From: Ostreococcus lucimarinus
Taxonomy: Eukaryota
NCBI GenBank assembly: GCA_000092065.1
Contig: CP000582.1
Strand: one strand, 5' to 3'
DNA: 64,000 bases
Below are positions 1,891 to 37,079 of the stretch, one piece after another. Numbering within the stretch: the stretch's first letter is position 1; each line of letters begins with the position of its first letter. Made by a program: the position numbers and the translations under genes. The notes below the pieces were generated by a model. It ran no database searches and was not told where the DNA came from. It saw only the letters and a list, made by a program, of their open reading frames with translations.

Positions 1891-2892
1891 ATGGAGTGCG
1901 TCGCGGTCAACTATGTACTTATATCTGAGTACCCAAGTTCCACAGGCCCAGTTTGCTCATACAGATCGAGTATCCGATTTCCTATAAGCTCAGAGATTTC
2001 TGGGTCAACATTCACGGCTTCCCACCATTTCTTCGGCAGTTCGAACTTGGAGCTCAGAAATTTGGTAGCTGTTTGAACTCAGAGAAAGTTCTGATTTCAA
2101 GCGCACGCAACTTACCTAAGTAGACGACTGCTTCAGCTATATGGTTTGCACTATACTCAAGGCATAGTGATGTTCGTAGACTTGCGCATTCGTCAGAAAT
2201 GTTATAATGTCGCGCGCAGATTTCTCGTACCTATCGTTAGCGAAATTCCAAGAAACTTGCGCAAGCGTTTTTGTTGACTCTTCCTCTATTAAACCAGCCT
2301 GACTCATCCTTTTAATTACTGAAAGTAAATGCTTATACGGATGTTCTACATTGAAATCAAAGCCAAGGCGATGCAGAAGTACACGTTCAGCTCTGAGAAT
2401 TGTCTCCTTCAGCTCAACATGAAGTTCCTGTCGCCGTTTAAGGGTGATTGTTACGAGCAAAATGAACATAATACCTGCTGCGAACTTTCTAGACGCGTGG
2501 GGTCGCTTGCTTTACGCTGTAATAAGTGGGACGTACGAGCAAGGTCATTGAGAGGTTTCGGGGTTTCTTCCACCTTTCCGGCAAGAAAAAGACACGCAGT
2601 GGCCATGACCTGCAAAGCTATCAACTCGAGCATGTTTCGGTTTTTTGGTTCCTTACCGCCGTCTCAAACTGTTGTGCATTTTGACTATCGAGCTCAAAAA
2701 AACGATGACAGAACACTGCCGCGGTCGCAATAGTGAGCTGGGGCCTGTCGCAGTCTGTTCTTTAGGAAAACTCGAACTGTACTACTTCATATGCTTACAC
2801 TTTTAGCTTCATGCCCGCTTCTTTGAGAAAATCGCAGTAACGCCATCTTCGCTCAGTGCTGGCATCCTTAGCTGTGCGAATTGAGCTTGACA
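1891..2892 (-). CDS. cyclin K/T-like transcription cyclin, multi-exon
   Basis: cyclin-box motifs LTIATAAVFCHRFF, ATACLFLAGKVEETPKPL, ERVLLHRLGFDFNVEHPYKHLL, LAQVSWNFANDR across at least 4 exons; 47-nt GT..AG intron at ~2610-2656 (minus strand) joins ...QQFETA to VMATACLF in frame. Confidence 0.6.
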
Positions 2893-3699
2893 TGGTCAGT
2901 AATGTGGGTGTTGAGCACGCGGCGGGAGCGCAGGGACTCACGTTTGTTTGTGACTGGTGGCGGTGCCGTACTTTCTTCGACTAACTCAATATACAACCAA
3001 CAAATAGAGCTATTAGCGTGCACGATTCGGGCAGCATTGCTCATGGTAATAATGTCTGCACGTGCAAGTTGCGCATCTGGCACGTACAGAAAGCCCGTGT
3101 CCGTCTGGAGCCCAGAACCGCCAGAGCAAGGTAGACGTAGGCTCGGACCGCCGACACGCCGGTCGATCGTTCCATGGACGATCTCATTGTCGTTCGTTGC
3201 AATAGAGACGTGAGCAAGTCATCACTTATCTCGCATGTCACACGGACGAGTTCTGCGTATTTTGAGACAGACGGCGTCGAGCGCGGGGAAAGGTCTCTCG
3301 GGGACCCTGGAGCTCTCGCTGATTCTGAGGTCTGGGTGCTCACGGACAACGGCCAGATGTTGAAAGTTGCGGACGTTAATCAAGTCCTACCGGTCAAACT
3401 CATTGAAACGGCGAGTGGGTACGTCGTGTATTCGCTTTTACTGTATGGTCTTGCCTACTCACGACCCCAGGGAACGTACCAGGACTGAGTGCGAGCTAAG
3501 TGAAGAGAACGTGGCGCCGGTGGAGGTAAGCTGATTTAAAACACGAATGTCCCTCAAATCATTGGAAATATAGATGGACGTGCTGCGCTTAGCTACTTGC
3601 AGCGCGACAAGTGCCACCGTCCAAACGGAATACGTGGCAGAGCTGCTGTGAGACTGGCCAAGATTTGCCTATCCCTGTTAGCATTGGAGTACCAAGCTA

Positions 3700-3775
3700 G
3701 TAGCGTATGTATGTATGTATGTATGTATGTATGTATGCATGTATGTAGGCGTGTATGCATGTGTGTTATCGGTGT
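3700..3775. repeat. (GTAT)n/(ATGT)n microsatellite
   Basis: gtatgtatgtatgtatgtatgtatgtatgcatgtatgtaggcgtgtatgcatgtgtg seen directly. Confidence 0.9.
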
Positions 3776-4541
3776 GAATCTATGTACGCGCATCGTTTAA
3801 TAGACCGTTGCACGTCGTATTTGTAATTTGTAACTAAGGTATCCACGTGTACTAGTAGTTCTAGACACCTCAAAGAGCTAATGCAGCTCTCTGGCTGTTT
3901 TAGTTGGTGCTATCAAAAATTGCGCATAGTAAGCGCGAACATTCGCCTTGTGTTTGAAGCCGCTGTTGTGTTGCTTTCGGACCGTTGCCGAGTCGTGTGT
4001 CAGGTGGGCGTTGCAGTAGTCTGAAGCGGAATATTGTTGAGGTATGTTGTACTTTTACCAACAGCGAGAAATGTGCGTACCGCAGTAATACCGTGCCATG
4101 CTGCGCCGTGTGTTCGCTCTAGTAACGAGCCTCCTGTTTCCACTTCGGAATGTGGAGTTATCCGAGCTCTTCTAGTCTTAACTCGCGTTACTCCTGCACT
4201 CCAGAACTGCAGAAGCAATGTGCCGCGCGCTCGCCCTCGCACGAGTCTCGGAATGAAGTTCTGACTCAGAACTTCTGAGTTAGCCGATTTCCGCTATCGG
4301 ATTCCTGGGTCATTACGGCCCGTAATTACGGGGAAGAATCGTATAATGTTTGTTTTATCCCATATTTGATTGAGCAAGCCAGCCTTAGCTCAGTACTTAG
4401 AACGTGCACAGTAAGTTCCAGTCCAGCTTCTAGAAGTTTGAGCTTGATCTTACAGAGCTTGATTAGCAACACACTCCGTAGAATGTCGGTGAAATAACAG
4501 CGCTATAGTATAGTAGTGATAATATGAACATGATAATATTA

Positions 4542-4569
4542 TCATTGTTGATATTAATATCAACAATGA
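4542..4569. repeat. perfect 28-bp AT-rich palindrome tcattgttgatattaatatcaacaatga
   Basis: sequence equals its own reverse complement; lies in the 3' intergenic region just downstream of the transporter gene. Confidence 0.85.
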
Positions 4570-4756
4570 GTTGCGCCACGATTAAGCGTCTTGAATAAAA
4601 CGTACTCGGGACTTCTTCTCAGCTTGCATAAGGCCTTTCTCTTGGCGATACGATGAACATAATGTATAAGTTATTTCTTTATTTCGTTGTACAGAGTGAT
4701 ATACGCTACAGATGCGACACTATGGTCATATACTGAATACGAGCGATTATTTCAGG

Positions 4757-6307
4757 CTATTCCCGCTGAAGATAGCTCTTCGCGTTGATGAGCGGGGCAA
4801 GCAGACAAATTCCGACAAACGTGGCGGTGAGAAGCGCAGCGAAAAATGCGTCCCATCCGTACTGTTGCACAAGAAGAGAAAGTGGAACGCCCGCGTTGGC
4901 TGCTCCTAGATATGCAATCCACCCAAGGAATCCCTCACTCGCACCAACGGAGCGACGACCAACAATTTCGGCCCCACACAGTCCTACTAGCATTTGCGGA
5001 CCGTACAGGAAGAACCCAATCATAAAAACTATGAGAGCTTGAGTGACGGGCCAACCAGCAGGAACCATCTTGAATGCAAGTAAAGAAGCCGCAACGCCAA
5101 TAAGATATACCATCACGACTCGAATACGATTACCGACGGCTCCTCTCGTTGATTTCGCAATCAAAGAGTCACTGATCCTTCCAGCTATCAGACTACCAAG
5201 CAAACCACCAAGTTCGAGGCCAGATACTCGGACGGCCGCCGCGCCTGCGTCGATCACACCCTTTTCTTTGATAAGATAAAATACTGACCAAGAAGTGATG
5301 CCCTGACGAACGACATAGACACAAAAGTATGTGAAAGCAAGCCCCCAGATGAAAGGGTTGGAGAGAACATTATGAAGAAGATTGTTCAAAAGGCTCGGTT
5401 GTTTCGAAATGTCGGCAGCATCAGCCTTAAGTCCGCCGGCAATGCTGACGTCTATCTCGACTGGTTCGAAACCTTTATCTTCTGGAGAATCTTTCAGCGT
5501 CGAGACGATGATCACACCAACAACGACAGCTATGCAGCCAGGAGCCCACAGACCCCAGTTCCAACCAAACGTACGAGCAGCAGTTCCAGCTAAGATGGGC
5601 GCCATAAAACCTCCAAGATTATGGGCAATGTTCCACATTCCCCAGTATGTTCCACGCTCGCTAGCAGCGAACCAAGAAGTCAAAATTTTCGCACAGCTTG
5701 GCGCACCGAACCCCTGCAAGATTCCATTCATCGCCCAGAGGACACAAAAGAAAGGAAGTGTCGAGCTCGCACCAAACGCAATATTTACAAGGCCAGTCGC
5801 AATCAAACCTCCGCCAAGCATTAGACTTGGCGATAACATATCACCCACCACACCGCTGACGAACTTACTGCAGCCATAACAAAGTGGAAAGATAGAGGTG
5901 ATAACACCAATAGAAGTTATATCAAGATGTAAAGACGGAGAAGCCACCATAGCTGGAGCAGTGAACGTCAAACTGTTGCGGGTCAAGTAGTAGCACGAGT
6001 AACCGAACAAAATGCTGAAAAACACGGAAAGGCGTGTTCTTAGAAACAGACTGTCGTATGTCCTCTTTGGCTCGGAAGTAGTTGCTGAGAAACCACAAAC
6101 TGTCGACGGACGGTGCAACTTGCTTCGACAATTGCGTATATGCCGCTTCTGGGGCGTAAAGTCACGTCGCACTGCGCATTTAATCCAAGTTACACGCTTC
6201 GGACCTCTCCGAGTTGTTCGAGATCCCACGGGGCTCCCCGGCTGGGCGTTGAGTGTTGTGACGTGTGCCGAGACGAACATTTCTGCTACGAAAGCAAAGC
6301 AAACCAA
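4757..6307 (-). CDS. MFS organophosphate:Pi antiporter (GlpT/UhpC/SLC37 glycerol-3-phosphate or sugar-phosphate transporter family)
   Basis: 516-aa ORF; 12-TM profile; matches to GlpT family e.g. FGYSCYYLTRNSLTFTAPAMV, GMWNIAHNLGGFMAPILAG; N-terminal ~95 aa may be UTR read-through or targeting extension. Confidence 0.75.
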   Translation of the reverse strand: MVCFAFVAEMFVSAHVTTLNAQPGSPVGSRTTRRGPKRVTWIKCAVRRDFTPQKRHIRNCRSKLHRPSTVCGFSATTSEPKRTYDSLFLRTRLSVFFSILFGYSCYYLTRNSLTFTAPAMVASPSLHLDITSIGVITSIFPLCYGCSKFVSGVVGDMLSPSLMLGGGLIATGLVNIAFGASSTLPFFCVLWAMNGILQGFGAPSCAKILTSWFAASERGTYWGMWNIAHNLGGFMAPILAGTAARTFGWNWGLWAPGCIAVVVGVIIVSTLKDSPEDKGFEPVEIDVSIAGGLKADAADISKQPSLLNNLLHNVLSNPFIWGLAFTYFCVYVVRQGITSWSVFYLIKEKGVIDAGAAAVRVSGLELGGLLGSLIAGRISDSLIAKSTRGAVGNRIRVVMVYLIGVAASLLAFKMVPAGWPVTQALIVFMIGFFLYGPQMLVGLCGAEIVGRRSVGASEGFLGWIAYLGAANAGVPLSLLVQQYGWDAFFAALLTATFVGICLLAPLINAKSYLQRE

Positions 6308-6579
6308 AAGAACACGGATTCAACTTCGAATCGCCTTGCTCTATGTCGCGCGACTCTCTGAAAACGGCCGTTACGTCTTCTTCTTCAACCACGCACGGGA
6401 CGTTCGGTACACGTGCAAAATCATATCAATGATGGCATATTGTAAGACAATTCTCGCGAAATAGTCCACGTCGAGTGGGTTTTCTGCCCGGCGAAAAACC
6501 GAAAAGTTGTGCGTCGGTGCGCACGTACCTCAGACGTCGCCTCAAGTACGCGGAACAGGCAACGCCCACAGAGCCTGTC

Positions 6580-7401
6580 ATGAAAGCTACTGGTTTTGAT
6601 TTTCACCGCGTGCACGCCCCCGCGCAAGATTTTCGCGCGAAAAAGACCGGTACAACGATATGTGGAGTAGTCTTCGCGGGGGGTGTTGTTCTCGGTGCAG
6701 ATACTCGGTCTACGAACGGGGAAACAGTAGCCGACAAAAACTGCGAAAAAATACATCACATAGCACCAAACATATATTGCTGCGGAGCTGGAACAGCTGC
6801 CGACACGGAGTCTCTGACTGGTAAGAGTTGCAACGTTGTCGGATTGTTCGAGATTTTGTTCCAATATTTATTCTAATAACACCACATAGGCCTGATTTCT
6901 TCCAATCTTCACCTTCACAGGGCACAAACAAATCGACAGAATTTGGTGAAGACTGCGCTCACTATGCTTAAAAGCTATCTTTTCCGTTATCAAGGTCATG
7001 TTGGCGCCGCACTAGTTTTAGGCGGCGTCGACAAGGAAGGCGCACATCTTTACACTGTCTACCCCCACGGATCCTCTGATGCTTTACCGTTCGCAGCGAT
7101 GGGTAGCGGATCTTTAGCGGCCATTGCAACGCTCGAGACGGGCTATAGTGAGGTTTTGAAGTTGGATGATGCAAAGGAGTTAGTGACACGAGCTATTCTA
7201 GCAGGTGTACTAAATGATCTCGGTTCCGGCTCTTCCGTCGACTTGTGTATAATTTCAAGGAGTGGGACAGAATATGTTAGGAATTATCGGTCTGATATGC
7301 ATCGAACTTTCAAATTGACACCTGGTTACGAATTCGGAGACGAATGCAACGAAGTGAACAGCGCCAACTTTGATACTGCCACTCGTATATTACGCAACTA
7401 A
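6580..7401 (+). CDS. PSMB7: proteasome subunit beta type-7 (beta2), 2 exons
   Basis: exon 1 ...[57 protein letters not shown]; exon 2 ...[32 protein letters not shown]...; both exons in the same frame separated by stop codons, so the intron length must be a multiple of 3; best fit is a donor at ~6846 and acceptor at ~6920 (75 nt). Confidence 0.8.
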
Positions 7402-7510
7402 AGAACCCAGTTGAGTGAGATATGTCACGTTTATGTCGCTAAATATTTCCTTTAAGCTTGTAAAAAGTTTTCGTCTTGTTGACTTGAATGTTCGACTTGA
7501 AAAGCCCATC

Positions 7511-9469
7511 CTATTGACTTCGCTCTTTCACAAGGGCATCCACAACGCTAGGATCAGCTAGAGTGGATATGTCACCCAACGAGTCTTCTTCTCGAGACGC
7601 TATTTTCCTCAAGATGCGTCTCATAATTTTACCACTACGCGTTTTTGGTAATCCTGGCGCCCATTGAATAGTATCAGGTGCTGCGAACGGACCGATAACA
7701 GTCCTCACACAGTTCACCAGAGCTTTCTTCGTTGCCTCCGTGAGAACACAACCTTCGCGCAACGTTACAAAAGCGTATATCGACTGACCCTTGATAGCGT
7801 GATCAATTCCCACTACAGCGGCTTCAGTACACTCCTGATGGGTGACTAATGCCGACTCGACCTCCGCAGTGCCGATACGATGACCAGACACGTTGATGAC
7901 ATCGTCAACACGTCCGGTAATCCAATAATACCCATCCGAGTCACGCTTGGCCCCATCGCCTGAAAAGTAGTACCCTTTAAACATGGAGAAGTACGCTTCT
8001 TCGTACCTTTTATGATCCGAAAAAAGTGTTCGAAACATGGATGGCCACGGTTTCTTGAAACACAAATACCCTTCGGCCTCTCCTGTCAATTCTTCTCCGG
8101 CATCGTTCAGTAATACTGGTTGAACACCAAAGAACGGGAGAGTCGCCGAACCTGGCTTCTGCTCTATCGCAAAAGGCAGTGGAGTGATCATATGCCCACC
8201 GGTTTCCGTTTGCCACCAGGTGTCTACGATCGGACAGCGTCCACCTCCGACGATCTCGGAGTACCACTGCCATGCTTCGGGGTTAATCGGTTCTCCGACT
8301 GTACCCAATATTTTCAGCGACAGCCTTTGGTGTTTGAGAACAAAGTCGTTACCGTATCGCTGCAACGCTCTTATCGCAGTTGGCGCTGTGTAGAATGCTT
8401 TCACATTATATTTGTCCACGATTTGCCAACACCGACCAGCATCTGGATGTGTCGGTACTCCCTCAAAGACAACTGAAGCGGCACCGTTTAGAAGTGGTCC
8501 ATATGTCACGTACGTATGACCTGTTATCCAGCCACAATCTGCAGTGCACCAAAATATATCACCTTGTTGCATGTTGAAAACAGAGGCGCATGTAGCTCCA
8601 GCATAAACCATGTACCCTCCGGTAGTATGGAGGACGCCCTTCGGGGAGCCTGTAGAACCAGACGTGTACAACATGAAGAGTGGATGCTCCGCATCAACCC
8701 ATTCTGTTGTGCACTCCATGGATTGTGCATGTACTGCTTGCTGCCAATGTTCATCACGACTAGTTGTGAGAAAGCCCTCCACGTCAAGCCTCTCGTTCAT
8801 GAAACATAAGCAGTGTTCAATTTTATGACCCTTTTCGGCACTGGAATCACATGCTTCGTCGACGACAGCTTTTAAATTTATGTGTTTCGAACCTCTCATC
8901 ACAGCTGAACATGTTAACACCACTTTCGCCGCCGATCCCAGAAGACGCTGCGCTAACGCCTCAGAAGAAAATCCTGCAAACACAACAGAGTGGACAGCCC
9001 CGATGCGGGCACAAGCAAGCATCGCAATAGGAAGTTCCATAATCATAGGTAAGTACAGTACAACAGCATCACCCTTAGCAACTCCGACCGATTTCAGCCA
9101 GTTTGCCAGCCGATTGACATCTGCTTGGAGCTCACTGTACGTTTTTGTCCCTTCTTCACCGACGTCATTACCTTCCCAGATTAACGCGACCTGCTCTCCA
9201 CAGCCCCTTTCAATATTTCGTTCGATGCAATTCCACGCAATGTTGGTCTTCCCGCCGGCAAACCATGAGACGTCAACTTTTCCGACGTCGGTATTGAAGT
9301 TGAAGGCGCTCACACTATCAGACCAGTCAGCACTCCAGACGAAGTCCTTGGCCAGTTTGGACCAAAATTTCTCTGGCTCAGTAACGGATTCGCGATAGAG
9401 CTCGTCGTACTGGCCACGACTCGAACAGTTTCGAAGTGTATCCATCACGTTCACGGTCGAAAGATTCAC
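7511..9469 (-). CDS. ACS: acetyl-CoA synthetase (acetate-CoA ligase), single exon
   Basis: 652-aa ORF with N-terminal ACS domain (PEKFWSKLAKDF...WF.GGKTNIAWNCIERN), AMP-binding motif YTSGSTGSPKGV, C-terminal PKTRSGKIMRRILRKIA. Confidence 0.9.
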   Translation of the reverse strand: MNLSTVNVMDTLRNCSSRGQYDELYRESVTEPEKFWSKLAKDFVWSADWSDSVSAFNFNTDVGKVDVSWFAGGKTNIAWNCIERNIERGCGEQVALIWEGNDVGEEGTKTYSELQADVNRLANWLKSVGVAKGDAVVLYLPMIMELPIAMLACARIGAVHSVVFAGFSSEALAQRLLGSAAKVVLTCSAVMRGSKHINLKAVVDEACDSSAEKGHKIEHCLCFMNERLDVEGFLTTSRDEHWQQAVHAQSMECTTEWVDAEHPLFMLYTSGSTGSPKGVLHTTGGYMVYAGATCASVFNMQQGDIFWCTADCGWITGHTYVTYGPLLNGAASVVFEGVPTHPDAGRCWQIVDKYNVKAFYTAPTAIRALQRYGNDFVLKHQRLSLKILGTVGEPINPEAWQWYSEIVGGGRCPIVDTWWQTETGGHMITPLPFAIEQKPGSATLPFFGVQPVLLNDAGEELTGEAEGYLCFKKPWPSMFRTLFSDHKRYEEAYFSMFKGYYFSGDGAKRDSDGYYWITGRVDDVINVSGHRIGTAEVESALVTHQECTEAAVVGIDHAIKGQSIYAFVTLREGCVLTEATKKALVNCVRTVIGPFAAPDTIQWAPGLPKTRSGKIMRRILRKIASREEDSLGDISTLADPSVVDALVKERSQ

Positions 9470-9811
9470 CTACCCTTGGTTTTCGCTCTTCGTAGTGCGA
9501 CGCAATGTGGGAAAGGCAGAGGTCACGGTGCCACATTGCAAATCACATGTCTGATATAGTGATATCCTTTAAATAGTTCAAATTTCCATTTGTATATTAC
9601 TATGAAAAGAGATTTGGAAGAAAAATGGACAAAAAAAGCCACGAACTTTTCGCTTTCCCCTCAACCCCTTAACCGTAGCGAGGTTAGTGGGGTAGCGCCG
9701 CCGCACTCAGGTTCTACAAACGTGCGAAACATCCATCACTGCACGGAGCGTGTCATCATCATTCTCAGTTTATCGATATCACGACCGTATAGACTCTAAA
9801 CGTAGCTCCGC

Positions 9812-10658: not shown

Positions 10659-10815
10659 ACAGAGTGCAACTCCGTGTTTCTTGTGTCATGGCTCAAAGTC
10701 CATTGCCTACATCGTCAATGCTGGAAGTTTGACGCATTGTGAAGCTCAGTATTTTTTGTTCTCTACCACAAGCTCACTGGTGCATCAACTACAGTTTGTT
10801 CGCGAGACGACAAGT

Positions 10816-11580: not shown

Positions 11581-11905
11581 CTGTTTTGAACGAGCGCTAT
11601 GTGGTGATTAGTCTCAGCCAACGTGGCTTCCTTAAAGCGACCTCATAAAGGTTATATAGCCACATATAGACAGTCTTATGTTAATATATGAGAGCAAGGA
11701 CCGAGCCAGCACTTTGCAGACGTTCCCAACGAACTGCTCGGCAGGAAAGCTCAACAGTTCCCGTCGGAAGCGAAAACGAGCGGTAAATCTATTGCTCGCG
11801 TGTCACCCTCCTCGAAATTTCGACTCGGGGCCTGCGTGTTTCACATAGCAGTAGCATACTTTTCTACATCGCAAATCAAGCCGACCCGAAGCAACGAGTG
11901 AATAG

Positions 11906-17910: not shown

Positions 17911-20193
17911 TCACCTACGTTTGCCTTTGGTACAACAAATAACGTTCAATGTACCCAAGTTATTACTCGTGGTATTGTCTAACTCACTCTGCTTTCTACT
18001 CAAATCGCGGGACATCCGTTTCAAGCACATAACGTCTATTTTCTTACTCGTCGAATTCAGCATACTTAAACTCAGTGCAAGCAAGTGTTCTAAGTGTACC
18101 GATTCTGACAAAAGCTCGAAACATGTAACGATGATTGCCTCGGCAAAACTACTCGAAGTATTTCGCATGGCAGCCATTTGCTGCGAAGTTGGCACGCGAT
18201 TTAAAATTGCCTGAAGTACAAAGGGTGTCGTCTTCAGCGCAGCTGCCAGATGTAAGGCCGACAGAAAGTCCTTACGTTGTAAGGCAGAAGCGACATTCGG
18301 CAATGATGCATCTTCAGATAGCCGAGTTGATATTTCATTTTCGTCCGCAGCAAGTCTATGAATATGAACTCCTCTCTTCGTCACAATAATGAAAACATCG
18401 GATTCTTTACTGTATGATAGAGCTCCAACAATATTCTTAGTGGGCATAGAAAGACCTACGTGCGGCAGATGTCGCTTAAGTAGAGTGTGCCGTCCGGGGT
18501 CATAGATACATATAAGTGCCGCTGACGTGCTACAAACAAGCATAGACCCAGACGGGTTGTACTGTAACGAAATGAAACTAGAATCGTCATTGAGTCGCGG
18601 AACATCTCGCGAGTAGTCCACAGTTCCCAAAAGTTGACTTCCTTCCATCTTCCAAAATGCTATTTTTTGCCCGGAGGTAGATACAGCTAATTGTTTATCA
18701 TCGCGGCGTATTGCGACTGCAATCACATCACGACTGTGTGGAATGACTTCACAGGCGAACTCTCGATGGCTCATGTCCCACAGTCGGACTGTACCATCCC
18801 AAGATCCAGACACCATGGTTGTCGTCATGCAGAAGTCCAAGGAGGAGATGATAGCGCTGTGACCAGACAGTACCTCAAGGAGTTGACCTGTGGTGAACGA
18901 CCACATCAGTATCTGAAATGTGTCTAGCGTACTTGCACATACGAGTTCCTCGCTAGCATCGACAGTAACTCTGTTGAATCTACTGTCAAATGAGGCTGTA
19001 AACGTCCGAAAAACACGCAGTCTATGTATGTCATGAGCGCGAACTGTGCCATCAAAGCTCGCGGACAAGAATCCGCCGCCGGATCGTAAGCATTCTACTG
19101 CCGAAACTAGTGCTTCGTGGTGATGAAATGTCGCCACGCATGACGAGGTCTGAATGCTCCAAACATTCACAACACCACTGTGCGTTCCAGTGATGAGTGT
19201 CTCGCCGTCGTCACTCAAAGTTGTACAGCTAACGCTTGCCGTGCTCGTACGGTGGTTCAGCCTTAAACTTTGCGAGCTTGTATCCCATACAACAATTCTT
19301 TCCGTTCCGAAAAGCGCTAAGCTCTCGCCCGTTTCATCGAAGCAGCATTTCTCTACATCAAAACCGAACGTGATCTGCCCCAGTTCTTGTGCTGTTTGCA
19401 CTGCGAACAATTGCACAAGATCGGGTGACGTGACCACCGCGACTTGATGTGCCCTATGACTAAATGTCGCGTATAACACCTCATTCACCGTGCCCAGCTT
19501 TTCTCGACGCACCAACTGCTTTTTAAACGGAGACATTGAGTCGTCATGATTTGTTACAGAGCACTCCAGTAATGTCCCAGCACGCGTTATGCTGATTATC
19601 TCATTCTTTTCACGAAACGAGACCGCAGCGATGTTTCTGTCATCAAATAGTATGCATCGATATTTGCCTGAGCACTCACGGTGGTATAGTCTGCATGTGC
19701 TACCCGCAGATACTGCGAAATGTCCATCGTCACTTTGTCCTCCAAAGCCGGTGACCGTGCCCTCAGCAATTGTTTCCCTAAATACTCGATTCATAGGTTC
19801 GGTCGGCGTGTAGCACTTGTTTTGCCATACTTCCAGTGCATGATCGTAAAGCACAACAACATTTGGCCATGTTCCACCTGCACTTGATACGAACTGCACC
19901 AAAAGCGGGAGCCCTGCCATTTTCTTGCGTTGTATCTGTGTCGCCGTGGCGATGTTGAAGATTGTGATGTAGTCGTCCCTATCTAGTGCAACCAAAATCA
20001 TCCTTTCAACACTAACATCTATTGACTTAATGCCTACGCGTTCGTTCCTGGCGATACATTTGCTGCTGGATGTTTGTACATCGACTTCAGAAACCACGTT
20101 GTCGGTTGCGACAAAAACCCTCCCTCTAGAGTAAACGACGCGGTTTGAATCGAAATCTGTATTGACGACTCCGCACGTAAGAAGTCGACTCAT
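17911..20193 (-). CDS. PWP2: periodic tryptophan protein 2-like U3 snoRNP WD40 protein (PWP2/UTP1)
   Basis: N-terminus MSRLLTCGVVNTDFDSNRVVYSRGRVFVATDNVV resembles PWP2 MKFxYKFSNLLG..GN; about 12 WD repeats; C-terminal Utp12-like helical domain ...HLEHLLALSLSMLN; the ORF upstream of MSRLL (to 20397) is probably UTR read-through. Confidence 0.6.
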   Translation of the reverse strand: MSRLLTCGVVNTDFDSNRVVYSRGRVFVATDNVVSEVDVQTSSSKCIARNERVGIKSIDVSVERMILVALDRDDYITIFNIATATQIQRKKMAGLPLLVQFVSSAGGTWPNVVVLYDHALEVWQNKCYTPTEPMNRVFRETIAEGTVTGFGGQSDDGHFAVSAGSTCRLYHRECSGKYRCILFDDRNIAAVSFREKNEIISITRAGTLLECSVTNHDDSMSPFKKQLVRREKLGTVNEVLYATFSHRAHQVAVVTSPDLVQLFAVQTAQELGQITFGFDVEKCCFDETGESLALFGTERIVVWDTSSQSLRLNHRTSTASVSCTTLSDDGETLITGTHSGVVNVWSIQTSSCVATFHHHEALVSAVECLRSGGGFLSASFDGTVRAHDIHRLRVFRTFTASFDSRFNRVTVDASEELVCASTLDTFQILMWSFTTGQLLEVLSGHSAIISSLDFCMTTTMVSGSWDGTVRLWDMSHREFACEVIPHSRDVIAVAIRRDDKQLAVSTSGQKIAFWKMEGSQLLGTVDYSRDVPRLNDDSSFISLQYNPSGSMLVCSTSAALICIYDPGRHTLLKRHLPHVGLSMPTKNIVGALSYSKESDVFIIVTKRGVHIHRLAADENEISTRLSEDASLPNVASALQRKDFLSALHLAAALKTTPFVLQAILNRVPTSQQMAAMRNTSSSFAEAIIVTCFELLSESVHLEHLLALSLSMLNSTSKKIDVMCLKRMSRDLSRKQSELDNTTSNNLGTLNVICCTKGKRR

Positions 20194-20647
20194 ATGGCTT
20201 TGTGTTGCGTTCTGGCGCAAGTATCCGCCTTCAAAGCGCGCGCGCTCAGTTTTGCCGGCGGCGCACGTTGGCTTTCGAGCGCTCAGTGCAAACTCATTTT
20301 CATACTGACGTATCCAGCTGTATACGGGCGTATATATATTGGGTGACTTATTAGTGATACAATATGCTCGCGCGTAAACAAACCCGAACTTTGTCAAATC
20401 TCGGCCTCGCGGTAAATGTGCGGGTTCTGTTGCGTTTAGCCAGACCCTCGTTTCACGTGACAGTTGCCGGTGCTGCCCGTATCACGTTATACCCTCTGCT
20501 CTGACTTCGTCTCAAAGTTTCCGACGATTGACTGTAGTACTCGAACCCGCCGCGGCTGCACGGGCTTCCTGTGTTCGGATAAGCAGCGACGATGTGCATA
20601 TCTGCACCGCGCGTAGCCAGGCTTTCATCAAGTCAAACAGAGTTGAA

Positions 20648-21977
20648 GATGTCCATGAGATCAGTGCGATCCAACACCCGACGTAGCAGTACGACCCAAT
20701 CTCTTTCGGTACGTTTCTAACGCCGTGAATATGAAGTCAAACTCACTCATCGACACGCACATGACACAGGGTACCAGTGCAAACTTGCTAAGCGTAGTGG
20801 CGGGAACGCAGCAGGCTCGATCTGTTGACGGTGTTCGAGTATTACAGCGTGAAGGTACTCTTGGCATTCAATATCTCGTGAGCCTCGAAGACGAGACGAG
20901 AGTATGGTGATGTCACGTACTGCTGTTTCGACTTGACACTAACACAGTTGTAGGCTGCCCAACGAATGTGTAGCCGACGATTTGAGGAGTCAGTACGGTC
21001 TAGAGTGGTGGAACGCGTGTCGACAGGTGCGTAAACCAGCCCGCAAATGATGCCAGCATTATCCTGAAAGAAACCATAACCAGGGTGACCAAGCTACCCT
21101 AGAGAAGTTCTTGAGTACAAGCTCCGGGACTTTGCTGCACTCCAAGGACTCAAAACAGAGAAGGTATATTGCTGATGGAAAAGTGAAGCGCATCTAAAAT
21201 AAATACTGTCTAGCCCCATTCATTTTCTTGCAGGGGTTGGCGACACATTCGTTCTTGACCGACTGTTGAAAGAAGGCGCAGATGTAAACGCCCAGGTATG
21301 CTGCCCATTTTAATTATTTCTAATTTGATCTCAGAATCTTAGGACGTCGATGGCTACACGGCTGCGCACCTCGCTGCTGGGTACATGAGACTCGACTCCC
21401 TACGGTGCTTACTTAGTGCAGGAGCTGATGCAGAACTCGAGGATAACACAGGTCGCTCGGTACGCTCGACACACTTAGTGCACTTTCTTGCTTCTTATCT
21501 ATTCACTCAAAGGTGCAAGGACTAGTGCAGACCCTTCTTTCGAATACGCCAGTAACAACGACGACGTATTCGCGCAGAGTGGCACTAGAGTCAATGTTAT
21601 CTGCCATAGAGGCCCATATATATGAAGAGATTGTCCCTGTCGCGCTACTTTCAAAGCGCTTGTCAAACGGCACTGCTGAATACCTGGTGAGATGGATCGA
21701 CGGTGAGGCTGCAAGCTTATATTAAACACCATGTACTAATACTAGATCAGACGTTGATGATATGTGGGTACCGGAGGGAGATATCGCGGATGATGTCATC
21801 CAGACATTCGAAGAGAACTTAGAGCTCACAAAAGGGGAGCTATTGACGCAGAAAGAAGACGAGAGTAATGGACAACGTAGGCTCATTCAGGTGAGGCTAA
21901 TTATTGTTTGGGGTTAATCAGACAAATTGATTCCTTATTTCAGTGGCATGATTCGCAAATCTTGACATGGATCTAAC
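20648..21977 (+). CDS. cpSRP43: chloroplast signal recognition particle 43 kDa protein-like (chromodomains + ankyrin repeats), multi-exon
   Basis: Ser/Thr/Arg-rich transit-like N-terminus MSMRSVRSNTRRSSTTQSLS; chromodomain-like exons ...LGIQYLVSLEDETRVW / VADDLRSQYGLEWWNACRQ; ankyrin repeats GVGDTFVLDRLLKEGADVNAQ, DVDGYTAAHLAAGYMRLDSLRCLLSAGADAELEDNTGRS; later chromodomains EYLVRWIDGE and DVDDMWVPEGDIADDVIQTFEE; exon boundaries approximate. Confidence 0.6.
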
Positions 21978-22090
21978 GTGCCAATAGACAAAGCACTAAC
22001 CTTGCCAACTTGGCACTTGAGTGCCAAGTGGCAAATATTAAAAAGCCTGTTGAGGCTCTCTTCACTTGGAAGGATATCCCAGTCACTCAG

Positions 22091-22871
22091 GGCTCAGGCA
22101 AACGATAGTGTCAACGAATGGTTCGCGTTCAATCGAAATCCTTGTAACCCATTTAGCGCAGCTACGGCATTTGCCGTGGTATCAAATTCAACCTCGCCGT
22201 CGCCTGATTCACGCGTCATAGTAGCGTCTTTGTAGCCAGAGAACTGCTGAAAGAGTAATGCCAACATGTGTGTCGTCGTTGCACCTACGATAGCGAAAAT
22301 GTAAAATATGTGTCTTCTCGGTTCAATTGAATAAAGATAGATCTTCGACCGTTTGACTTACCTGGCAGTCCCTGCACAGCTATACGTGTGCTGGGAGGGC
22401 GCTTCATACCATCCATTGCTTTTGGCTCATGTCTTGTGGCATTCTCAGCAGTTGCGTTTTTTCTACGCAAACGCTCCCGTTCTTGGTTTTCTACTTTTCT
22501 ACTCAATCGAACTGCTCCATCGCGTTCGATATGCTCGCCTCTGCGTCGGCGGATTGCGTCTGATGTGGTGTTCGCAACCACAATTTTCTTGTGAACGCGT
22601 AAGTCAAAGTCATGAAATATGGCTTGCTACGTACCATTGGTTTATCATAAAATGGGAAGCTCTGTAATGACTGCATTGCATTATTTGCATCCATGGATGT
22701 GTCGTATACAATCCAAGCTTGTCCTCGTAGTCTATATGTGTTTGCCGTTACTATGTCTAAAACCTTCCCGAATGGAGAAAATACTGCATGTAGTGCAGCT
22801 CGTAATTCTGTTAAGGAAAATGTGAGAATCGAACCGTTGACGCATTCATGATATTCCGTCCGGTGGCGCAC
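22091..22871 (-). CDS. U1 snRNP A / U2 snRNP B-double-prime type protein with two RRMs, multi-exon
   Basis: RRM1 LHAVFSPFGKVLDIVTANTYRLRGQAWIVYDTSMDANNAMQSLQSFPFYDKPMV (RNP1/RNP2 of U1A); RRM2 in the terminal exon LFQQFSGYKDATMTRESGDGEVEFDTTANAVAALNGLQGFRLNANHSLTLSFA-stop. Confidence 0.75.
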
Positions 22872-23377
22872 TAGAATGCTGACGTTCCTCCATACATCGT
22901 ACCTTGCTTCGGAACTTTTTCGTTCAAGTTGTTCACATACAAGGTGTGGAATTCTTCGGAGACTTGTGACGCCATCTCAATATCTCTCTTTTAAAGTAGA
23001 GCCCGCAGCGCCGTGCGACGTATTGAATATTCCGGTGTATACGTGTGTTGCGAAGTTGTCTTGATTTTTCAGGTCGAGTCGCTGCGCAAACTGGGGGGAA
23101 CATTGTTGGGTTTGTCGGTTTGTTGATTTGCCGCAGTGGCTGTGATGTATTTTGAGAAATGTACTTTCACGATACGTATACTTATGAACTTGAAACGCCT
23201 ATATATTCATTGGACGATACGAGCGCTCGAGATCCGAAGTCGCGAGGATCTCCGCTACACGCACTCGCCAGGGCACCACTTCAACGCGCGCGGCGCAGCG
23301 TACAATTGCAGCACATTTTATCTAGTTCATACACAACACGTGACCAGCTGAAATACCGTCCGGTTGCCTCCCCCAGA

Positions 23378-24283
<906 letters not shown>

Positions 24284-24433
24284 CCTTGTTTGCCGAACAG
24301 TTTCTACAACTTGATTCGGAGCCCAGTGTAGTAAGTTGTTGCACACGTGTAATACGAATACTAGTACAAGTAACCAGCACGAAATTTATACTTTCGGTGA
24401 ACGCAGAACAGTCGACGTTCGAGTCAACATCGA

Positions 24434-24754
24434 CTATTCTACACGTTGTGCATCTGTCTGTCTTTGGCTCTCAGTGTAGTGCGGTGTTGCACGCGACACA
24501 ACTAACTTTCTACCTTTCCATCTGCAATGATTGAGCACCGACATACAACGATCAATCTCACTTTCTTGTGAAACAGTCAAATCTACAAAAGCAAATCCTC
24601 GACACTGCTGCGGCTCCGTACTGAACTTGTCGAGCTTGATGTCCACAGAAACTACGTCCCCAAAAGGTGCAAGACGCCTACTGATTTCGTCCACTGTGAC
24701 ATCTGGAGCAAGCCCTCCAACATGCAGACGGCTAGAAAACTTCATACGATGCAC
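24434..24754 (-). CDS. small RRM-domain protein, NOL8/Nop8-like RRM
   Basis: MKFSSRLHVGGLAPDVTVDEISRRLAPFGDV...RGFAFVDLTVSQESEIDRCMSVLNHCRWKGRKLVVSRA resembles the N-terminal RRM of NOL8 (..KCMSVLNKTKWKGG.L); little room downstream for more exons before Rab11. Confidence 0.4.
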   Translation of the reverse strand: MHRMKFSSRLHVGGLAPDVTVDEISRRLAPFGDVVSVDIKLDKFSTEPQQCRGFAFVDLTVSQESEIDRCMSVLNHCRWKGRKLVVSRATPHYTESQRQTDAQRVE

Positions 24755-25051
24755 TCGTGACTCTCGTTTTCGTTCTGCGTGAACTCAGTCGCCAATAGTT
24801 TGCTTGTCGCACAGGTTTTACGTTTCTGACCACGCTTGTAATTACGTCTTCCTTCGATGAGCGCGTGCGCCACGAAATAATAGCGACAACGGCTGCGTAA
24901 AAACTCGTTTGCGACCGAGCGTGATAGTGCCGAAGCAGGGCGTAGCGCGTGCGTTCAGGCGCGCGACTTCTTATGACGAGTCAACTACGTGTTGTTCATA
25001 TAGCTACAATGTTCCACAGCTACGACGGTAGTTATTGTCGCTCCCACAGCA

Positions 25052-25145
25052 ATCAAATAGGCTCTGCCTGCGCAGGTTCGAATCCTGCCGTCCGCGCACT
25101 GAACAAATGCGGACGTGCCCGAGTGGTTAAGGGGTTTGACTCGAA
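25052..25145 (+). tRNA. circularly permuted tRNA-Ser(CGA) gene: 3' half (anticodon-stem 3' strand TCAAA, long variable arm, T-arm GCAGG-TTCGAAT-CCTGC, acceptor 3' strand CGTCCGC, discriminator G), then a 12-nt spacer cactgaacaaat, then the 5' half (acceptor GCGGACG, D-arm CCCGAGTGGTTAAGGG, anticodon stem TTTGA, loop CTCGAA)
   Basis: acceptor strands GCGGACG/CGTCCGC and anticodon stem TTTGA/TCAAA are perfectly complementary only if the two halves are rejoined at anticodon-loop position 37/38; the D-loop GAGTGGTTAA and long variable arm are class-II (Ser) hallmarks; the anticodon is CGA. Confidence 0.55.
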
Positions 25146-25409
25146 TGAATGAATAGAGGAAAACATCTGAATGTACGTGACATTCGGCGTCTGAACAGCA
25201 GCATGTATTGACAAGACAAACGCCGAATTAAATACGCTTCCGCAAGTGTGTTCGAAGCAAAACACGCGGTTACCCTTGTTTTTTTTGCACCCTTGATGGC
25301 GGCGCATCACACGCGTACAGACGCTTTCGGCCGTCCAACCCGGGTCGAATTGAAAGGAACGAAACATTCTTTCGATCGATCGAACCACGTAAGGAGCGCA
25401 TCCAACTAC

Positions 25410-26745
25410 ATGGGCCAAACAGAAAAGGTTCGTTGAGTCGTATTTATAATTTTCGGCAATTGAACGCTAAGTAGGACCTGAAAATCGAACCCGAAAGTGC
25501 CAACCATACGCTCGATACGTCTGCATGGCCGCTTCTGCTAAAGAATTATGACAAGTTGATGGTACGTATCAATATTACGTGTTCTTTGCAAGTGTTCTTA
25601 GAGGGTATCTGTAGGTACGAACTGGTCACTACACTCCAATTCCGTGTGGAAGCTCTCCACTGCGACGACCACTGGCAGAGTATCTACGTTACGGGGTCAT
25701 CAATTTAGACAAGCCCGCCAATCCTTCTTCGCATGAGGTAGTTGCATGGTTGAAGCGCATCCTAAGGGTTGAAAAAACTGGACATAGTGGTACACTCGAC
25801 CCAAAAGTTACTGGTTCACTCATTGTCTGCATTGATCGTGCCACGCGCCTGGTAAAGTCTCAACAGGGTGCAGGCAAGGAGTACGTGTGCGTTTGTCGAT
25901 TGCATTCAGCGCCGACAGGTGGTAAGAGTGCTGTTGAACGCGGTATTGAAACTCTTACCGGCGCACTTTTTCAACGGCCACCGTTAATTTCAGCTGTCAA
26001 AAGACAGTTGCGCATTCGAACTATCTATGATAGTAAACTTCATGAGTTTGATGAGGCCAGGAATCTTGTTGTTTTCTGGGTATCATGTGAAGCAGGCACT
26101 TACGTTCGTACTTTATGTGTGCATCTTGGATTACTATTGGGAGTTGGTGGTCACATGCAAGAGTTACGCCGAGTTCGCTCTGGAATCTGCTCAGAGTCAA
26201 AGAACCTCGCGACCATGCACGACGTGCTAGATGCTATGTGGGTGTGTGACAACTTGAAAGATGATCATTACATTAGACGCGTTGTTATGCCGCTCGAGGT
26301 TTTGTTGACGAACTACAAGCGGGTTGTTGTGAAGGACTCCGCCATAAATGCAATTTGTTACGGTGCCAAGCTCATGATTCCTGGTTTATTAAGATATGAA
26401 GCTGGCATCGAGGTTGGGGATGAGTGCGTTCTGATGACAACGAAGGGCGAAGCTATCGCAATCGGCATAGCTGAAATGACAACTGCTGTTATGGCGACTT
26501 GCGACCATGGCAGCGTTGCTAAGGTCAAGCGAGTGGTAATGGAAAGAGACACTTATCCAAGACGTTGGGGTCTGGGTCCCAACGCGCAGAATAAGAAACA
26601 AACAAGCACCGATAAATCACAGAAATTAGGAGCGTCGATTATTGCATCCGACGGCGCAAATACGGGAAAAGAGATGATAAAGGAGAAGAAAGAGAAGAAA
26701 GAGAAGAAAGAGAAGAAAGAGAAGAAGAGAAAGCTGGACGAATAA
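25410..26745 (+). CDS. CBF5: H/ACA snoRNP pseudouridine synthase Cbf5/dyskerin, >=3 exons, C-terminal KKE repeat tail
   Basis: MGQTEK | [29 protein letters not shown] | [67 protein letters not shown]...TruB and PUA domains; tail [18 protein letters not shown]. Confidence 0.85.
26683..26731 (+). repeat. (GAGAAGAAA)n 9-bp tandem repeat encoding the KKE tail of Cbf5
   Basis: gagaagaaagagaagaaagagaagaaagagaagaag seen directly. Confidence 0.85.
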
Positions 26746-26886
26746 TTGCTGACAGTTTTGCAGTTTTTTTGATCCGATCGAGTGTACAAATCACACTGTA
26801 CTGCGACTGTTTTTAATAATAATCATATTGGTATGTTCTAGTTTCTACTTTTGACCACCATTCAAAGTCACTATTGCAGTTCAGCT

Positions 26887-27990
26887 CTACTGCGGACAAG
26901 CTCGCCTCTTATACAAAAATATCGACTTTTGATCACACAAGACAATATTAATCCCATCCGCCGTACAGTCCGCTAAACAAGTTTCGCACAGTTCAGCTGA
27001 TTCTTGATTGTCGCGCGTCATTAGTTTGATTTCTTTAAAGCTGTTTTTATTCGCATCTGACTCCCATGCACTACACGTACCAGCTCGTGAGCCAATCACC
27101 GTGAACACACAATTTTCGCTACAACCCACACACCCAGCGAAATGTAAAGTTGTATCCAAATACTCAAGCTCATCTACATCTGATGTGAAGACAGAAACAC
27201 TACTAAGTAGCCTTCTATCAAGTGTGCCCAGAAGGATAGAGGAACTTGTAGGTGCAAATGCAAGACGTGTGATGGGTGATAGACCACTTCGTCGCAGTGT
27301 ACGAATACAACCACACGTATGGACGTCCCACAAGCGGCAGCTGCCATCATAACTGGAACTTACTAGAAATGAGCCATCTCTGGCGAATTGCACGCCCGTG
27401 ACGGGGTCTGCGTGAGCAGGTATAACAGCTACACATCCTCCAGAAGCAACGTTCCAAAGTCGAATAGTTTCATCAATCGAACCACTAGCAATTATCGTAC
27501 TCAGCGCGTTTATACAACAACATAGCACTGCAGAAACATGTCCTCTGTAAGCTTGTAAGCATGTCGCCCCCGAGGCTTGCCATAAGAGGACTAGACCGTC
27601 ATCTGAACACGTGACTACAAATTTATCATCAGTGGACCAGCAACAGTCAGCAATAGCTCTCAAGTGTCCCCTGAAATTCTCGAGTCGCTCACCCGTGCCT
27701 ATACATCGAATGCTGCAACTGCCGTTCACCAAACCTAGTACTACCCTGGGCCAATTAAATCATAATCTATTACATCGGAGTATTGAGGGATTTGCCTACC
27801 TTTTACCGTCGTTCGATATCTTCAGTGACGTTATGCCTTCACAGCTCATGGTCAGTACGCGCGCACACTTGTACTCCATCGATCAGCGCATGTGGCCGAC
27901 GCCGTCTGTTAAACTTGCGGTTGCTTCAACAGTTTGCGTCCGCACTTGGTACCAGGTTACACTGCCGTTCGCACTGCTCGCGTCATCTTT
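26887..27990 (-). CDS. WDR5-like WD40-repeat protein, multi-exon (N-terminal exons upstream of 27732 not resolved)
   Basis: FRGHLRAIADCCWSTDDKFVVTCSDDGLVLLWQASGATCLQAYRGHVSAVLCCCINALSTIIASGSIDETIRLWNVASGGCVAVIPAHADPVTGVQFARDGSFLVSSSYDGSCRLWDVHTCGCIRTL aligns repeat-by-repeat with WDR5; the first ~2 blades are missing from the ORF, so upstream exons are needed. Confidence 0.55.
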
Positions 27991-37070: not shown

Positions 37071-37079
37071 AGAAGTCCT

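What the first reader, a model, noticed from the sequence alone, without database searches (positions are those of the whole stretch)
1891..27990. Length-uniform ultra-short introns (47-51 nt) in compartment A versus near absence of introns in compartment B
Hand-spliced introns in the cyclin, CK2 beta, NF-YB (two), GAR1 (several) and PSMA1 genes are 47, 47, 48, 51, 48, 47 and 51 nt, all GT..AG, mostly GTAAG/GTACG donors, with pyrimidine-rich 3' ends. Longer ones of 75 and 93 nt occur in PSMB7 and the helicase. The only intron I could find in compartment B is 62 nt, in VPS51. Such a tight size class points to a distinct intron population, as reported for the low-GC outlier region in Ostreococcus, and it matters for gene prediction here.
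Basis: seen in the sequence. Interest (0 to 1): 0.5.

Follow-up and report, generated by a model that had tools for sequence, protein, structure and literature searches.

The report
Known short introns of Ostreococcus outlier chromosome
The window is the edge of the low-GC part of the Ostreococcus lucimarinus "big outlier chromosome", whose genes carry many very short spliceosomal introns (mostly 45-61 bases); these are real and removed from transcripts, but this class ("BOC1 introns") has been described since 2006.

Summary
The window is Ostreococcus lucimarinus CCE9901: hand-spliced proteins equal RefSeq proteins exactly, on an 895,087-nt record. It spans the border between the low-GC BOC1 region (1 to about 37150, GC 0.47) and standard sequence (GC 0.64).

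I found 54 GT-AG introns between 256 and 30100.
- 43 are removed exactly in RNA-derived public contigs that are about 100% identical to the window.
- 6 more are supported by exact RefSeq or transcript ORF products.
- 5 rest on homology only.

Lengths run from 45 nt upward, with mode 47 and median 51.5. 25/54 lie in 47-51, 48/54 in 45-61 and 50/54 under 75. The outliers are 69, 71, 77, 95, 186 and 196 nt.

There is no pyrimidine-rich 3' end. Donors follow AG|GTAMGT; GTAAG or GTACG make up 26/54.

Compartment B holds 14 genes with uninterrupted ORFs. Its single intron is the 62-nt, GC-rich one in VPS51 (49417-49478).

This matches published BOC1 introns: 40-65 bp, AT-rich, GT-AG, no branch motif. 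Novelty: already known. There are minor by-products for annotation.

The parts
1..37150 (.). Compartment A: the low-GC BOC1 part of the O. lucimarinus big outlier chromosome (GC 0.472). It holds about 26 genes, 18 of them with introns.
   Evidence: Composition. Species and record from exact protein look-ups.
37151..64000 (.). Compartment B: standard-GC flank (GC 0.637). It holds 14 genes with uninterrupted ORFs and one intron.
   Evidence: full-length Pfam domains in single ORFs. (three ORFs equal RefSeq single-exon proteins).
256..796 (-). Nsp1-like gene: introns 256-307 (52), 438-485 (48), 614-661 (48), 746-796 (51).
   Evidence: Removed in RNA-derived contigs L035-L037.
1171..1482 (+). PsbX precursor: introns 1171-1366 (196) and 1431-1482 (52).
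   Evidence: Removed in 5 contigs. The 112-aa ORF P0347 threads through them.
2069..2798 (-). CycK/T-like cyclin: introns 2745-2798 (54), 2610-2656 (47), 2428-2474 (47), 2181-2230 (50), 2069-2115 (47).
   Evidence: The spliced product equals XP_001416457.1. Each intron is removed in 3 contigs.
3419..3573 (+). Unnamed gene: introns 3419-3470 (52) and 3526-3573 (48).
6821..6889 (+). Proteasome beta-2 (PSMB7): intron of 69 nt.
   Evidence: The exact 250-aa product is in Logan. P0150 threads through it.
9963..10522 (+). GAR1: introns 9963-10010 (48), 10073-10119 (47), 10165-10210 (46), 10253-10306 (54), 10359-10410 (52), 10475-10522 (48).
   Evidence: The first five are removed in 5 contigs. The last is supported only by collinearity with O. 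tauri, plant and yeast GAR1, and is retained in 6/6 contigs.
10842..11097 (-). CK2 beta: introns 11051-11097 (47) and 10842-10900 (59).
   Evidence: The product equals XP_001416461.1. Both are removed in 6 contigs.
12085..12313 (+). NF-YB: introns 12085-12132 (48) and 12263-12313 (51).
   Evidence: The first is removed in L002 and L003. The 108-aa product lacking both is in 16 contigs.
12574..13441 (-). Proteasome alpha (PSMA1): introns 13371-13441 (71), 13274-13324 (51), 13172-13226 (55), 12891-12937 (47), 12699-12754 (56), 12574-12624 (51, in frame and stopless).
   Evidence: The product equals XP_001416462.1. Three are removed in L002. Homologues are collinear over all junctions.
14696..14750 (-). 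TGS1 cap methyltransferase: intron of 55 nt.
   Evidence: The exact 296-aa product is in Logan.
15499..16302 (+). SF1 helicase: introns 15499-15559 (61), 15946-15990 (45), 16243-16302 (60).
   Evidence: Removed in 4 contigs.
20709..21943 (+). Ankyrin/chromodomain (cpSRP43-like) gene: eight introns, 20709-20769 (61), 20907-20953 (47), 21027-21083 (57), 21164-21213 (50), 21296-21342 (47), 21460-21512 (53), 21703-21750 (48), 21891-21943 (53).
   Evidence: Removed in 5-7 contigs. The exact 322-aa product is in Logan.
22285..22902 (-). U1A/U2B''-like RRM protein: introns 22808-22902 (95), 22588-22634 (47), 22285-22361 (77).
   Evidence: The product equals XP_001416465.1..
23398..24184 (+). Rab11: introns 23398-23448 (51), 23591-23651 (61), 23779-23828 (50), 23979-24030 (52), 24126-24184 (59).
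   Evidence: The first three are removed in contigs. The last two rest on frame and homology reasoning only.
25428..25614 (+). Cbf5/dyskerin: predicted introns 25428-25474 (47) and 25562-25614 (53).
   Evidence: ORF joining plus recalled family consensus only. No exact product was found.
27746..27799 (-). WD40 (SWD3-like): intron of 54 nt.
   Evidence: The 302-aa transcript ORFs P0361 and P0362 thread through it.
29915..30100 (-). Chloroplast ribosomal protein L35: intron of 186 nt.
   Evidence: RefSeq XP_001416468.1 and transcript ORF P0375 thread through it.
49417..49478 (+). VPS51: the only intron found in compartment B. It is 62 nt with GC 0.65, and has GACTGAC 22 nt from the 3' splice site.
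   Evidence: A single Pfam VPS51_Exo84_N match spans the junction. No exact product was found.

Best explanation
These are the 'BOC1 introns' of Mamiellophyceae, seen here in Ostreococcus lucimarinus CCE9901 at the border of the low-GC BOC1 region of its big outlier chromosome.

Shown here. They are unique (non-repeated) GT-AG introns removed from the transcripts. They sit just above a lower length limit of about 45 nt, with mode 47, and 89% lie in 45-61 nt. The 5' splice site is conventional: G at -1, A at +3, G at +5. The 3' end is YAG. There is no polypyrimidine tract and no enriched branch motif. Intron GC is 0.41 against 0.49 in the flanking exon sequence. If left in, 49 of 54 would stop or shift the reading frame.

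Inferred. They are ordinary U2-type spliceosomal introns. Recognition is by intron definition across a very short intron, using the 5' site, the YAG and possibly the drop in GC. The pile-up at 47 nt reflects a minimal spliceable length. Unspliced copies are largely removed by nonsense surveillance.

From the literature, not tested here. The regional confinement goes with the other BOC1 properties: low GC, transposons, high expression, and suspected suppressed recombination at a mating-type-like region.
For: Identity: hand-spliced CK2 beta, cyclin, PSMA1 and U1A-like proteins equal RefSeq XP_001416461.1, XP_001416457.1, XP_001416462.1 and XP_001416465.1 of O. lucimarinus on an 895,087-nt record.

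Excision: 43 GT-AG segments are missing exactly from Logan and JGI contigs that otherwise match the window with 0-6 mismatches per contig. Six more are supported by exact RefSeq or transcript ORF products.

Size, composition and signals.

Not repeats: no intron matches another intron or a second place in the window.

They evolve as non-coding sequence: against a related wild strain (L004), CDS is 97.6% identical and introns 91.6%. All indels lie outside CDS, and intron lengths stay within 48-71 nt.

Contrast with compartment B: uninterrupted ORFs carry full Pfam domains, and three equal RefSeq single-exon proteins. A-like candidate segments number 114 in A against 1 in B.

Literature: PMC3491373, PMC3879977, bioRxiv 10.1101/2025.04.21.649811.
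Against: - Five introns rest on homology only.
- The GAR1 last intron is retained in all 6 contigs that span it, and the U1A-like 77-nt intron in 6 of 7.
- Only 36/53 introns are below the 43% GC used in the Micromonas definition.
- Six introns exceed 65 nt, and two are about 190 nt, outside the class.
- I could not verify that the Logan runs are RNA libraries. That is inferred from the exact GT-AG excisions.
- Recognition by intron definition, the minimal-length limit and nonsense-mediated decay are inferences.
- Compartment B was not checked with transcripts, so short UTR introns there could have been missed.
Confidence: 0.93

Rival explanations
1. The interruptions are not introns. They are frameshifts or stops from sequencing errors or decaying pseudogenes in a degenerate low-GC region, and the GT..AG ends are chance.
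For: Naive GT..AG ORF-joining gives thousands of chance candidates at every length. The region does hold rearranged gene fragments (33285-36811).
Against: 43 segments are removed base-exactly in independent contigs from many samples. The spliced products equal RefSeq proteins. They are also collinear with homologues. Wild genomic contigs carry the same segments at 92-100% identity.
Confidence: 0.01
2. They are copies of a mobile intron family (introner elements), as in Micromonas pusilla, which would explain a uniform length.
For: The length mode is tight. Introner elements exist in a sister genus (PMC3879977).
Against: There is no sequence similarity between any two of the 54 introns and no second copies in the window. 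[quoted passage not shown]
Confidence: 0.02
3. There is no special intron class. The low-GC part simply holds conserved, highly expressed housekeeping genes that kept ancestral introns, and short length is the genome-wide norm for a compact genome. On this view the A/B contrast reflects gene content.
For: The genes are housekeeping ones: proteasome, CK2, GAR1, Cbf5, Rab11, NF-YB. The single B intron is also short at 62 nt. BOC1 orthologues are highly expressed in other algae too (PMC3491373).
Against: Published averages for Ostreococcus tauri introns are 103-140 nt (PMC4378021). The B intron differs in composition (GC 0.65 against 0.41) and carries a CTGAC branch-type motif that the A introns lack. 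Conserved genes in B (TK, Nipped-B, HCAR-like, DUR3-like) have no introns.
Confidence: 0.04

Closest known systems
BOC1 introns of Mamiellophyceae (Derelle 2006 and Palenik 2007, as cited in PMC3491373; Verhelst 2013, PMC3879977)
   Same: Confined to the low-GC part of the big outlier chromosome. Many per gene. Very short (48/54 within 40-65 nt, 50/54 under 75 nt). Lower GC than the exons. GT-AG. No branch-point motif. Unique sequences. Excised in transcripts.
   Different: In this 37-kb sample the 5' splice site is clearly conventional, at about 1 bit each for -1, +3 and +5. PMC3491373 states that no conserved splice-site motif could be detected. One third of the introns are above the 43% GC cut-off used for Micromonas. 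No TG or CG acceptors were seen. Two introns of 186 and 196 nt in the same region fall outside the class.
Canonical Mamiellophyceae introns (standard chromosomes)
   Same: The VPS51 intron in compartment B is a single intron in its gene, GC-rich (0.65), and has a CTGAC branch-type motif.
   Different: It is 62 nt long with donor GTAATG. Micromonas canonical introns favour AG|GTGCGT, with the branch motif 43-52 nt upstream. One intron is too few to characterise the class here.
Introner elements of Micromonas
   Same: A tight length class and spliceosomal excision.
   Different: Introner elements are repeated sequences in high-GC regions. The introns here share no sequence with each other and lie in the low-GC region.

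Membership tests
BOC1 introns (Mamiellophyceae) | Located in the low-GC sub-region (BOC1) of the big outlier chromosome of a mamiellophycean alga | tested here: met
   Exact identity to O. lucimarinus CCE9901 proteins on an 895,087-nt record. GC is 0.472 against 0.637 across the border at about 37.15 kb. That this record is chromosome 2, the BOC, rests on the literature and my own knowledge.
BOC1 introns (Mamiellophyceae) | Short: 40-65 bp (PMC3491373) or <75 nt (PMC3879977) | tested here: met
   48/54 lie within 40-65 nt and 50/54 are under 75 nt. The median is 51.5. The four longer ones (77, 95, 186, 196) are not members by this criterion.
BOC1 introns (Mamiellophyceae) | AT-rich relative to exons (<43% GC in the Micromonas definition) | tested here: inconclusive
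   Mean intron GC is 0.405 against 0.487 in the flanking 40+40 nt of exon. Only 36/53 are below 0.43. The cut-off was set for Micromonas, not Ostreococcus.
BOC1 introns (Mamiellophyceae) | Mostly GT-AG, with no discernible branch-point motif | tested here: met
   54/54 are GT-AG. YTRAY occurs in 24/53, against 20.9 +/- 3.6 in shuffles.
BOC1 introns (Mamiellophyceae) | Singleton sequences, not repeats | tested here: met
   No non-self hits among the 54 introns and no second copies in the window.
BOC1 introns (Mamiellophyceae) | Excised from transcripts | tested here: met
   43 are removed exactly in RNA-derived contigs. Six more are supported by exact spliced ORF products. Five are untested.
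BOC1 introns (Mamiellophyceae) | High number per gene compared with the rest of the genome | tested here: met
   About 2.1 per gene in A (54 introns, about 26 genes) against 0.07 per gene in B (1 intron, 14 genes). Only this window was sampled.
Introner elements | Introns that are copies of one another | tested here: not met

The most novel reading that the evidence does not exclude
In O. lucimarinus the BOC1 introns may not be signal-free as the literature describes. They show a conventional 5' splice-site consensus (AG|GTAMGT) and a hard lower length limit of 45 nt with a pile-up at 47 nt. This would mean they are defined by a minimal-length, intron-definition mode of splicing rather than by GC contrast alone. 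It also suggests that RefSeq models across BOC1 systematically miss in-frame or terminal short introns (NF-YB, PsbX and helicase are examples here).
Probability: 0.35. Interest if true: 0.25.

Novelty: already known. Interest (0 to 1): 0.15.

Why it matters
The finding confirms, base by base and with transcript evidence, a published peculiarity of Mamiellales genomes. It does not reveal a new one.

Its practical value is for annotation. Short introns of 45-61 nt, some in frame and without stops, defeat standard gene finders. In this 37 kb alone, several RefSeq models are incomplete or lack a matching entry:
- NF-YB keeps a 51-nt intron.
- PsbX lacks two 5' exons.
- The transcript-supported helicase, PSMB7, TGS1 and ankyrin/chromodomain models carry no NCBI source in the exact look-up; for the helicase no look-up was made, and its 780-aa product is known only from Logan contigs.

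The curated set of 54 junctions could train a splice model for BOC1 regions. Why one chromosomal region keeps such introns is still open, but this window adds no new handle on that question.

Tried and rejected
1. Three home-made dynamic-programming gene finders. Coding statistics in the 47% GC region are too weak (about 0.12 nats per codon). The models over-chained exons and skipped small ones, so I abandoned them for homology and transcript evidence.
2. A raw count of all ORF-joining GT..AG pairs by length. It showed no peak and was swamped by chance pairs.
3. A chimeric 1812-aa query of eight spliced proteins in the search for homologous proteins. The word prefilter returned only giant WD40 proteins, and one search was wasted.
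4. The look-up of encoding contigs with spliced proteins. I got round this through exact cluster look-ups, whose P ids were accepted.
5. Anchoring on single-exon genes. This returned only long genomic metagenome contigs. They were useful for comparison but not for splicing.
6. Wrong first guesses, later corrected by evidence:
   - cyclin intron 1: 44, corrected to 54 nt
   - helicase: 64/60, corrected to 61/45/60
   - ankyrin gene: 70, corrected to 50 nt, plus four introns I had missed
   - unnamed gene at 3526: 77, corrected to 48 nt
   - Rab11 first intron: 48, corrected to 51 nt
7. The exact look-up failed for my GAR1, Rab11, Cbf5, VPS51 and TK models. The cause is probably start-codon choice or retained introns.
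8. Palenik 2007 and Derelle 2006 are not held in the paper library. They are cited only through PMC3491373 and PMC3879977.
Full report
**What the window is.** Composition splits the window at about 37.15 kb. Compartment A (1-37150) has GC 0.472 and compartment B has GC 0.637. I hand-spliced proteins for CK2 beta, a CycK/T-like cyclin, the proteasome alpha subunit PSMA1 and a U1A-like RRM protein. These are, residue for residue, RefSeq proteins XP_001416461.1, XP_001416457.1, XP_001416462.1 and XP_001416465.1 of Ostreococcus lucimarinus CCE9901, carried on an 895,087-nt record. In compartment B, three uninterrupted ORFs equal XP_001416223.1, XP_001416228.1 and XP_001416229.1 of the same record. 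The window is therefore the border of the low-GC BOC1 region of that alga's big outlier chromosome. The assignment to chromosome 2 rests on the literature and on my own knowledge.

**Checking the observation.** Purely statistical gene finding failed, because codon bias is weak here.

The decisive evidence came from public assemblies. Logan contig L002 (SRR28326232) matches window 13548-10306 with one mismatch, and lacks six segments exactly:
- 13274-13324 (51 nt)
- 13172-13226 (55 nt)
- 12699-12754 (56 nt)
- 12085-12132 (48 nt)
- 11051-11097 (47 nt)
- 10842-10900 (59 nt)

These lie in genes on both strands. I used protein ids from exact cluster look-ups to fetch further contigs. In total, 25 short Logan and JGI contigs were aligned to the window; 21 of them lack GT-AG segments, and together they remove 43 distinct ones. 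All 43 normalise to GT..AG on the strand of the host gene. I infer that these contigs derive from RNA. I could not inspect the run metadata, but base-exact loss of GT-AG segments from otherwise identical sequence has no other plausible source. Genomic metagenome contigs of the same organism keep the segments.

Six further introns are supported by exact products:
- PSMA1 introns of 71, 47 and 51 nt, by the RefSeq-identical 236-aa protein.
- The second NF-YB intron, 12263-12313, by a 108-aa ORF found on 16 contigs.
- The WD40 intron 27746-27799, by 302-aa transcript ORFs.
- The L35 intron 29915-30100, by RefSeq and a 254-aa transcript ORF.

Five introns rest on frame and homology only. The last GAR1 intron has collinearity with O. 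tauri, plant and yeast GAR1. For the two in Rab11 and the two in Cbf5 the homology is recalled family consensus, not a tool alignment.

**Numbers.** There are 54 introns between 256 and 30100, all GT-AG.

| Measure | Value |
|---|---|
| Minimum length | 45 nt |
| Mode | 47 nt (10 introns) |
| Median | 51.5 nt |
| In 47-51 nt | 25/54 |
| In 45-61 nt | 48/54 |
| Under 75 nt | 50/54 |
| Outliers | 69 (PSMB7), 71 (PSMA1), 77 and 95 (U1A-like), 186 (L35), 196 (PsbX) |

The single 93-nt helicase intron is really three introns of 61, 45 and 60 nt.

Signals and composition:
- Intron GC averages 0.405 against 0.487 in 40 nt of exon on each side.
- Donors: G at -1 in 43/53, A at +3 in 39/53, G at +5 in 43/53, T at +6 in 27/53. 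With the NF-YB intron added, GTAAG or GTACG make up 26/54.
- Acceptors in the 53-intron count: CAG 30, TAG 18, AAG 5, never GAG. The 54th intron, NF-YB 12263-12313, also ends in AAG.
- There is no polypyrimidine tract (0.566 against 0.555).
- YTRAY is not enriched (24/53 against 20.9 +/- 3.6 in shuffles).

Intron phases are 28, 11 and 15 for phases 0, 1 and 2. Retention would give an in-frame stop inside the intron in 38 cases and a frameshift in 11. Five would be silent in-frame insertions. No intron resembles another, and none has a second copy in the window.

Against a related wild strain (L004, ENA metagenome), CDS is 97.6% identical, introns 91.6% and other non-coding sequence 94.7%. All indels fall outside CDS, and intron lengths stay between 48 and 71 nt. 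The in-frame 51-nt PSMA1 segment behaves like an intron, at 88% identity.

**Compartment B.** Fourteen genes are present: thymidine kinase; a 1811-aa Nipped-B/SCC2-like protein; a BAH protein; a NUDIX/NudC-like protein; an ankyrin protein; a Got1/Sft2-like protein; VPS51; an FrhB-type reductase; a small membrane protein; a DUF985 cupin; a PHD protein; an RBR ligase; UreF; and an SSF transporter. All are uninterrupted ORFs. Nine of the ten proteins scanned show full or near-full Pfam matches in one stretch; the BAH match is partial and the other four genes were not scanned. Three equal RefSeq single-exon proteins.

The one intron is in VPS51 at 49417-49478. It is 62 nt with GC 0.65, and has GACTGAC 22 nt from the acceptor. 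A single VPS51_Exo84_N match spans the junction.

A simple A-type pattern (GT[AG][ACT]G, 44-62 nt, ending in AG, GC under 0.45) occurs 114 times in A and once in B. The split of 54 introns in 37.15 kb against 1 in 26.85 kb has a binomial probability of about 4e-12 under equal density (my own arithmetic). B was not checked with transcripts, so UTR introns could have been missed.

**What it is and how it works.** These are the BOC1 introns described for all sequenced Mamiellales.
[quoted passage not shown] It reports no universal fold and no conserved motifs, with existence shown by ESTs.
- PMC3879977: BOC1 introns are short (<75 nt), AT-rich (<43% GC), mostly GT-AG, without a discernible branch point, and are singletons.
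- The 2025-26 preprint 10.1101/2025.04.21.649811 confirms higher intron density and more splice variants in BOC1, including in O. lucimarinus.

Shown here: location, excision, size, composition, signals, uniqueness and faster divergence.

Inferred: recognition by intron definition through the 5' site, the YAG and the GC drop; a minimal spliceable length near 45-47 nt that produces the sharp left edge of the distribution; and removal of unspliced transcripts by nonsense surveillance, since 49/54 would disrupt the frame.

Not tested here: the regional confinement presumably shares its cause with the other BOC1 traits. The literature proposes suppressed recombination in a mating-type-like region.

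**Rivals.** Sequencing error or pseudogene decay is excluded by the transcript contigs and the exact RefSeq products. An introner-element origin is excluded by the lack of any similarity between introns. The view that this is only a gene-content effect is not fully excluded. It is weakened because the B intron differs in composition and branch signal, because published Ostreococcus tauri intron averages are 103-140 nt, and because conserved B genes lack introns.

**Novelty and score.** The finding is already known. The small additions are:
- a clear conventional 5' splice-site consensus in this sample, where the literature reports none;
- the hard lower limit at 45 nt;
- several RefSeq models that miss introns;
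- frequent retention of particular introns in assembled transcripts.

Interest is low, at 0.15.

Noticed in passing
window 33090-36811: A 2292-nt segment (34520-36811) is made of two parts. The first 862 nt carry a PP2A-type phosphatase N-terminal fragment and a NadC C-terminal fragment. The remaining 1430 nt are a second copy of the RFC1 3' part (33090-34519 = 35382-36811). Together they create a chimeric phosphatase-RFC1 ORF at 33285-35156 (-). Two metagenome contigs (L006, L007), 100% identical on both sides, lack the segment.
   Followed up: partly
window 12263-12313; 1101-1684; 15946-15990: RefSeq models lag behind transcripts. NF-YB XP_001416214.1 (114 aa) keeps the 51-nt intron, whereas a 108-aa product is on 16 contigs. 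PsbX XP_001416212.1 (70 aa) lacks two 5' exons joined by introns of 196 and 52 nt; the 112-aa ORF is on 22 contigs. The helicase has an in-frame, stopless 45-nt intron that is removed in 4 contigs.
   Followed up: partly
window 10475-10522 and 22285-22361: Some introns are mostly retained in assembled transcripts. The last GAR1 intron is retained in 6/6 contigs, which would cut off the C-terminal RGG domain. The 77-nt U1A-like intron is retained in 6/7. This fits reports of many splice variants from BOC1.
   Followed up: no
window about 3700-4760; loci L018, L019: This is a gene-poor stretch with a GTAT microsatellite (about 3706-3760) and AT-rich inverted repeats near 4500-4570. In wild contigs the neighbourhood of the MFS gene carries extra ORFs, including a 2516-aa Helitron_like_N/PIF1 ORF (L019). 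This suggests transposon presence/absence polymorphism.
   Followed up: no
GAR1 (9812-10650) vs UreF (61016-61843): Proteins of the low-GC part are far from their O. tauri orthologues (GAR1 69% identity). UreF of compartment B falls in the same 90%-identity cluster as O. tauri UreF. Only two genes were compared.
   Followed up: no
window 38342-43774 (-): An intronless 1811-aa Nipped-B/SCC2-like ORF lies directly beyond the GC border. Its GC is intermediate (about 0.55), between the two compartments. A preprint lists SCC2 among the O. tauri BOC1 genes.
   Followed up: no
L001 positions 1-120 vs window 32180: The JGI contig carrying the KAS gene diverges from the window exactly after an AG at window 32181. 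Upstream of that point it carries 120 nt of GC-rich sequence not found in the window. This could be a spliced 5' UTR exon from elsewhere, a strain difference, or a chimeric contig.
   Followed up: no
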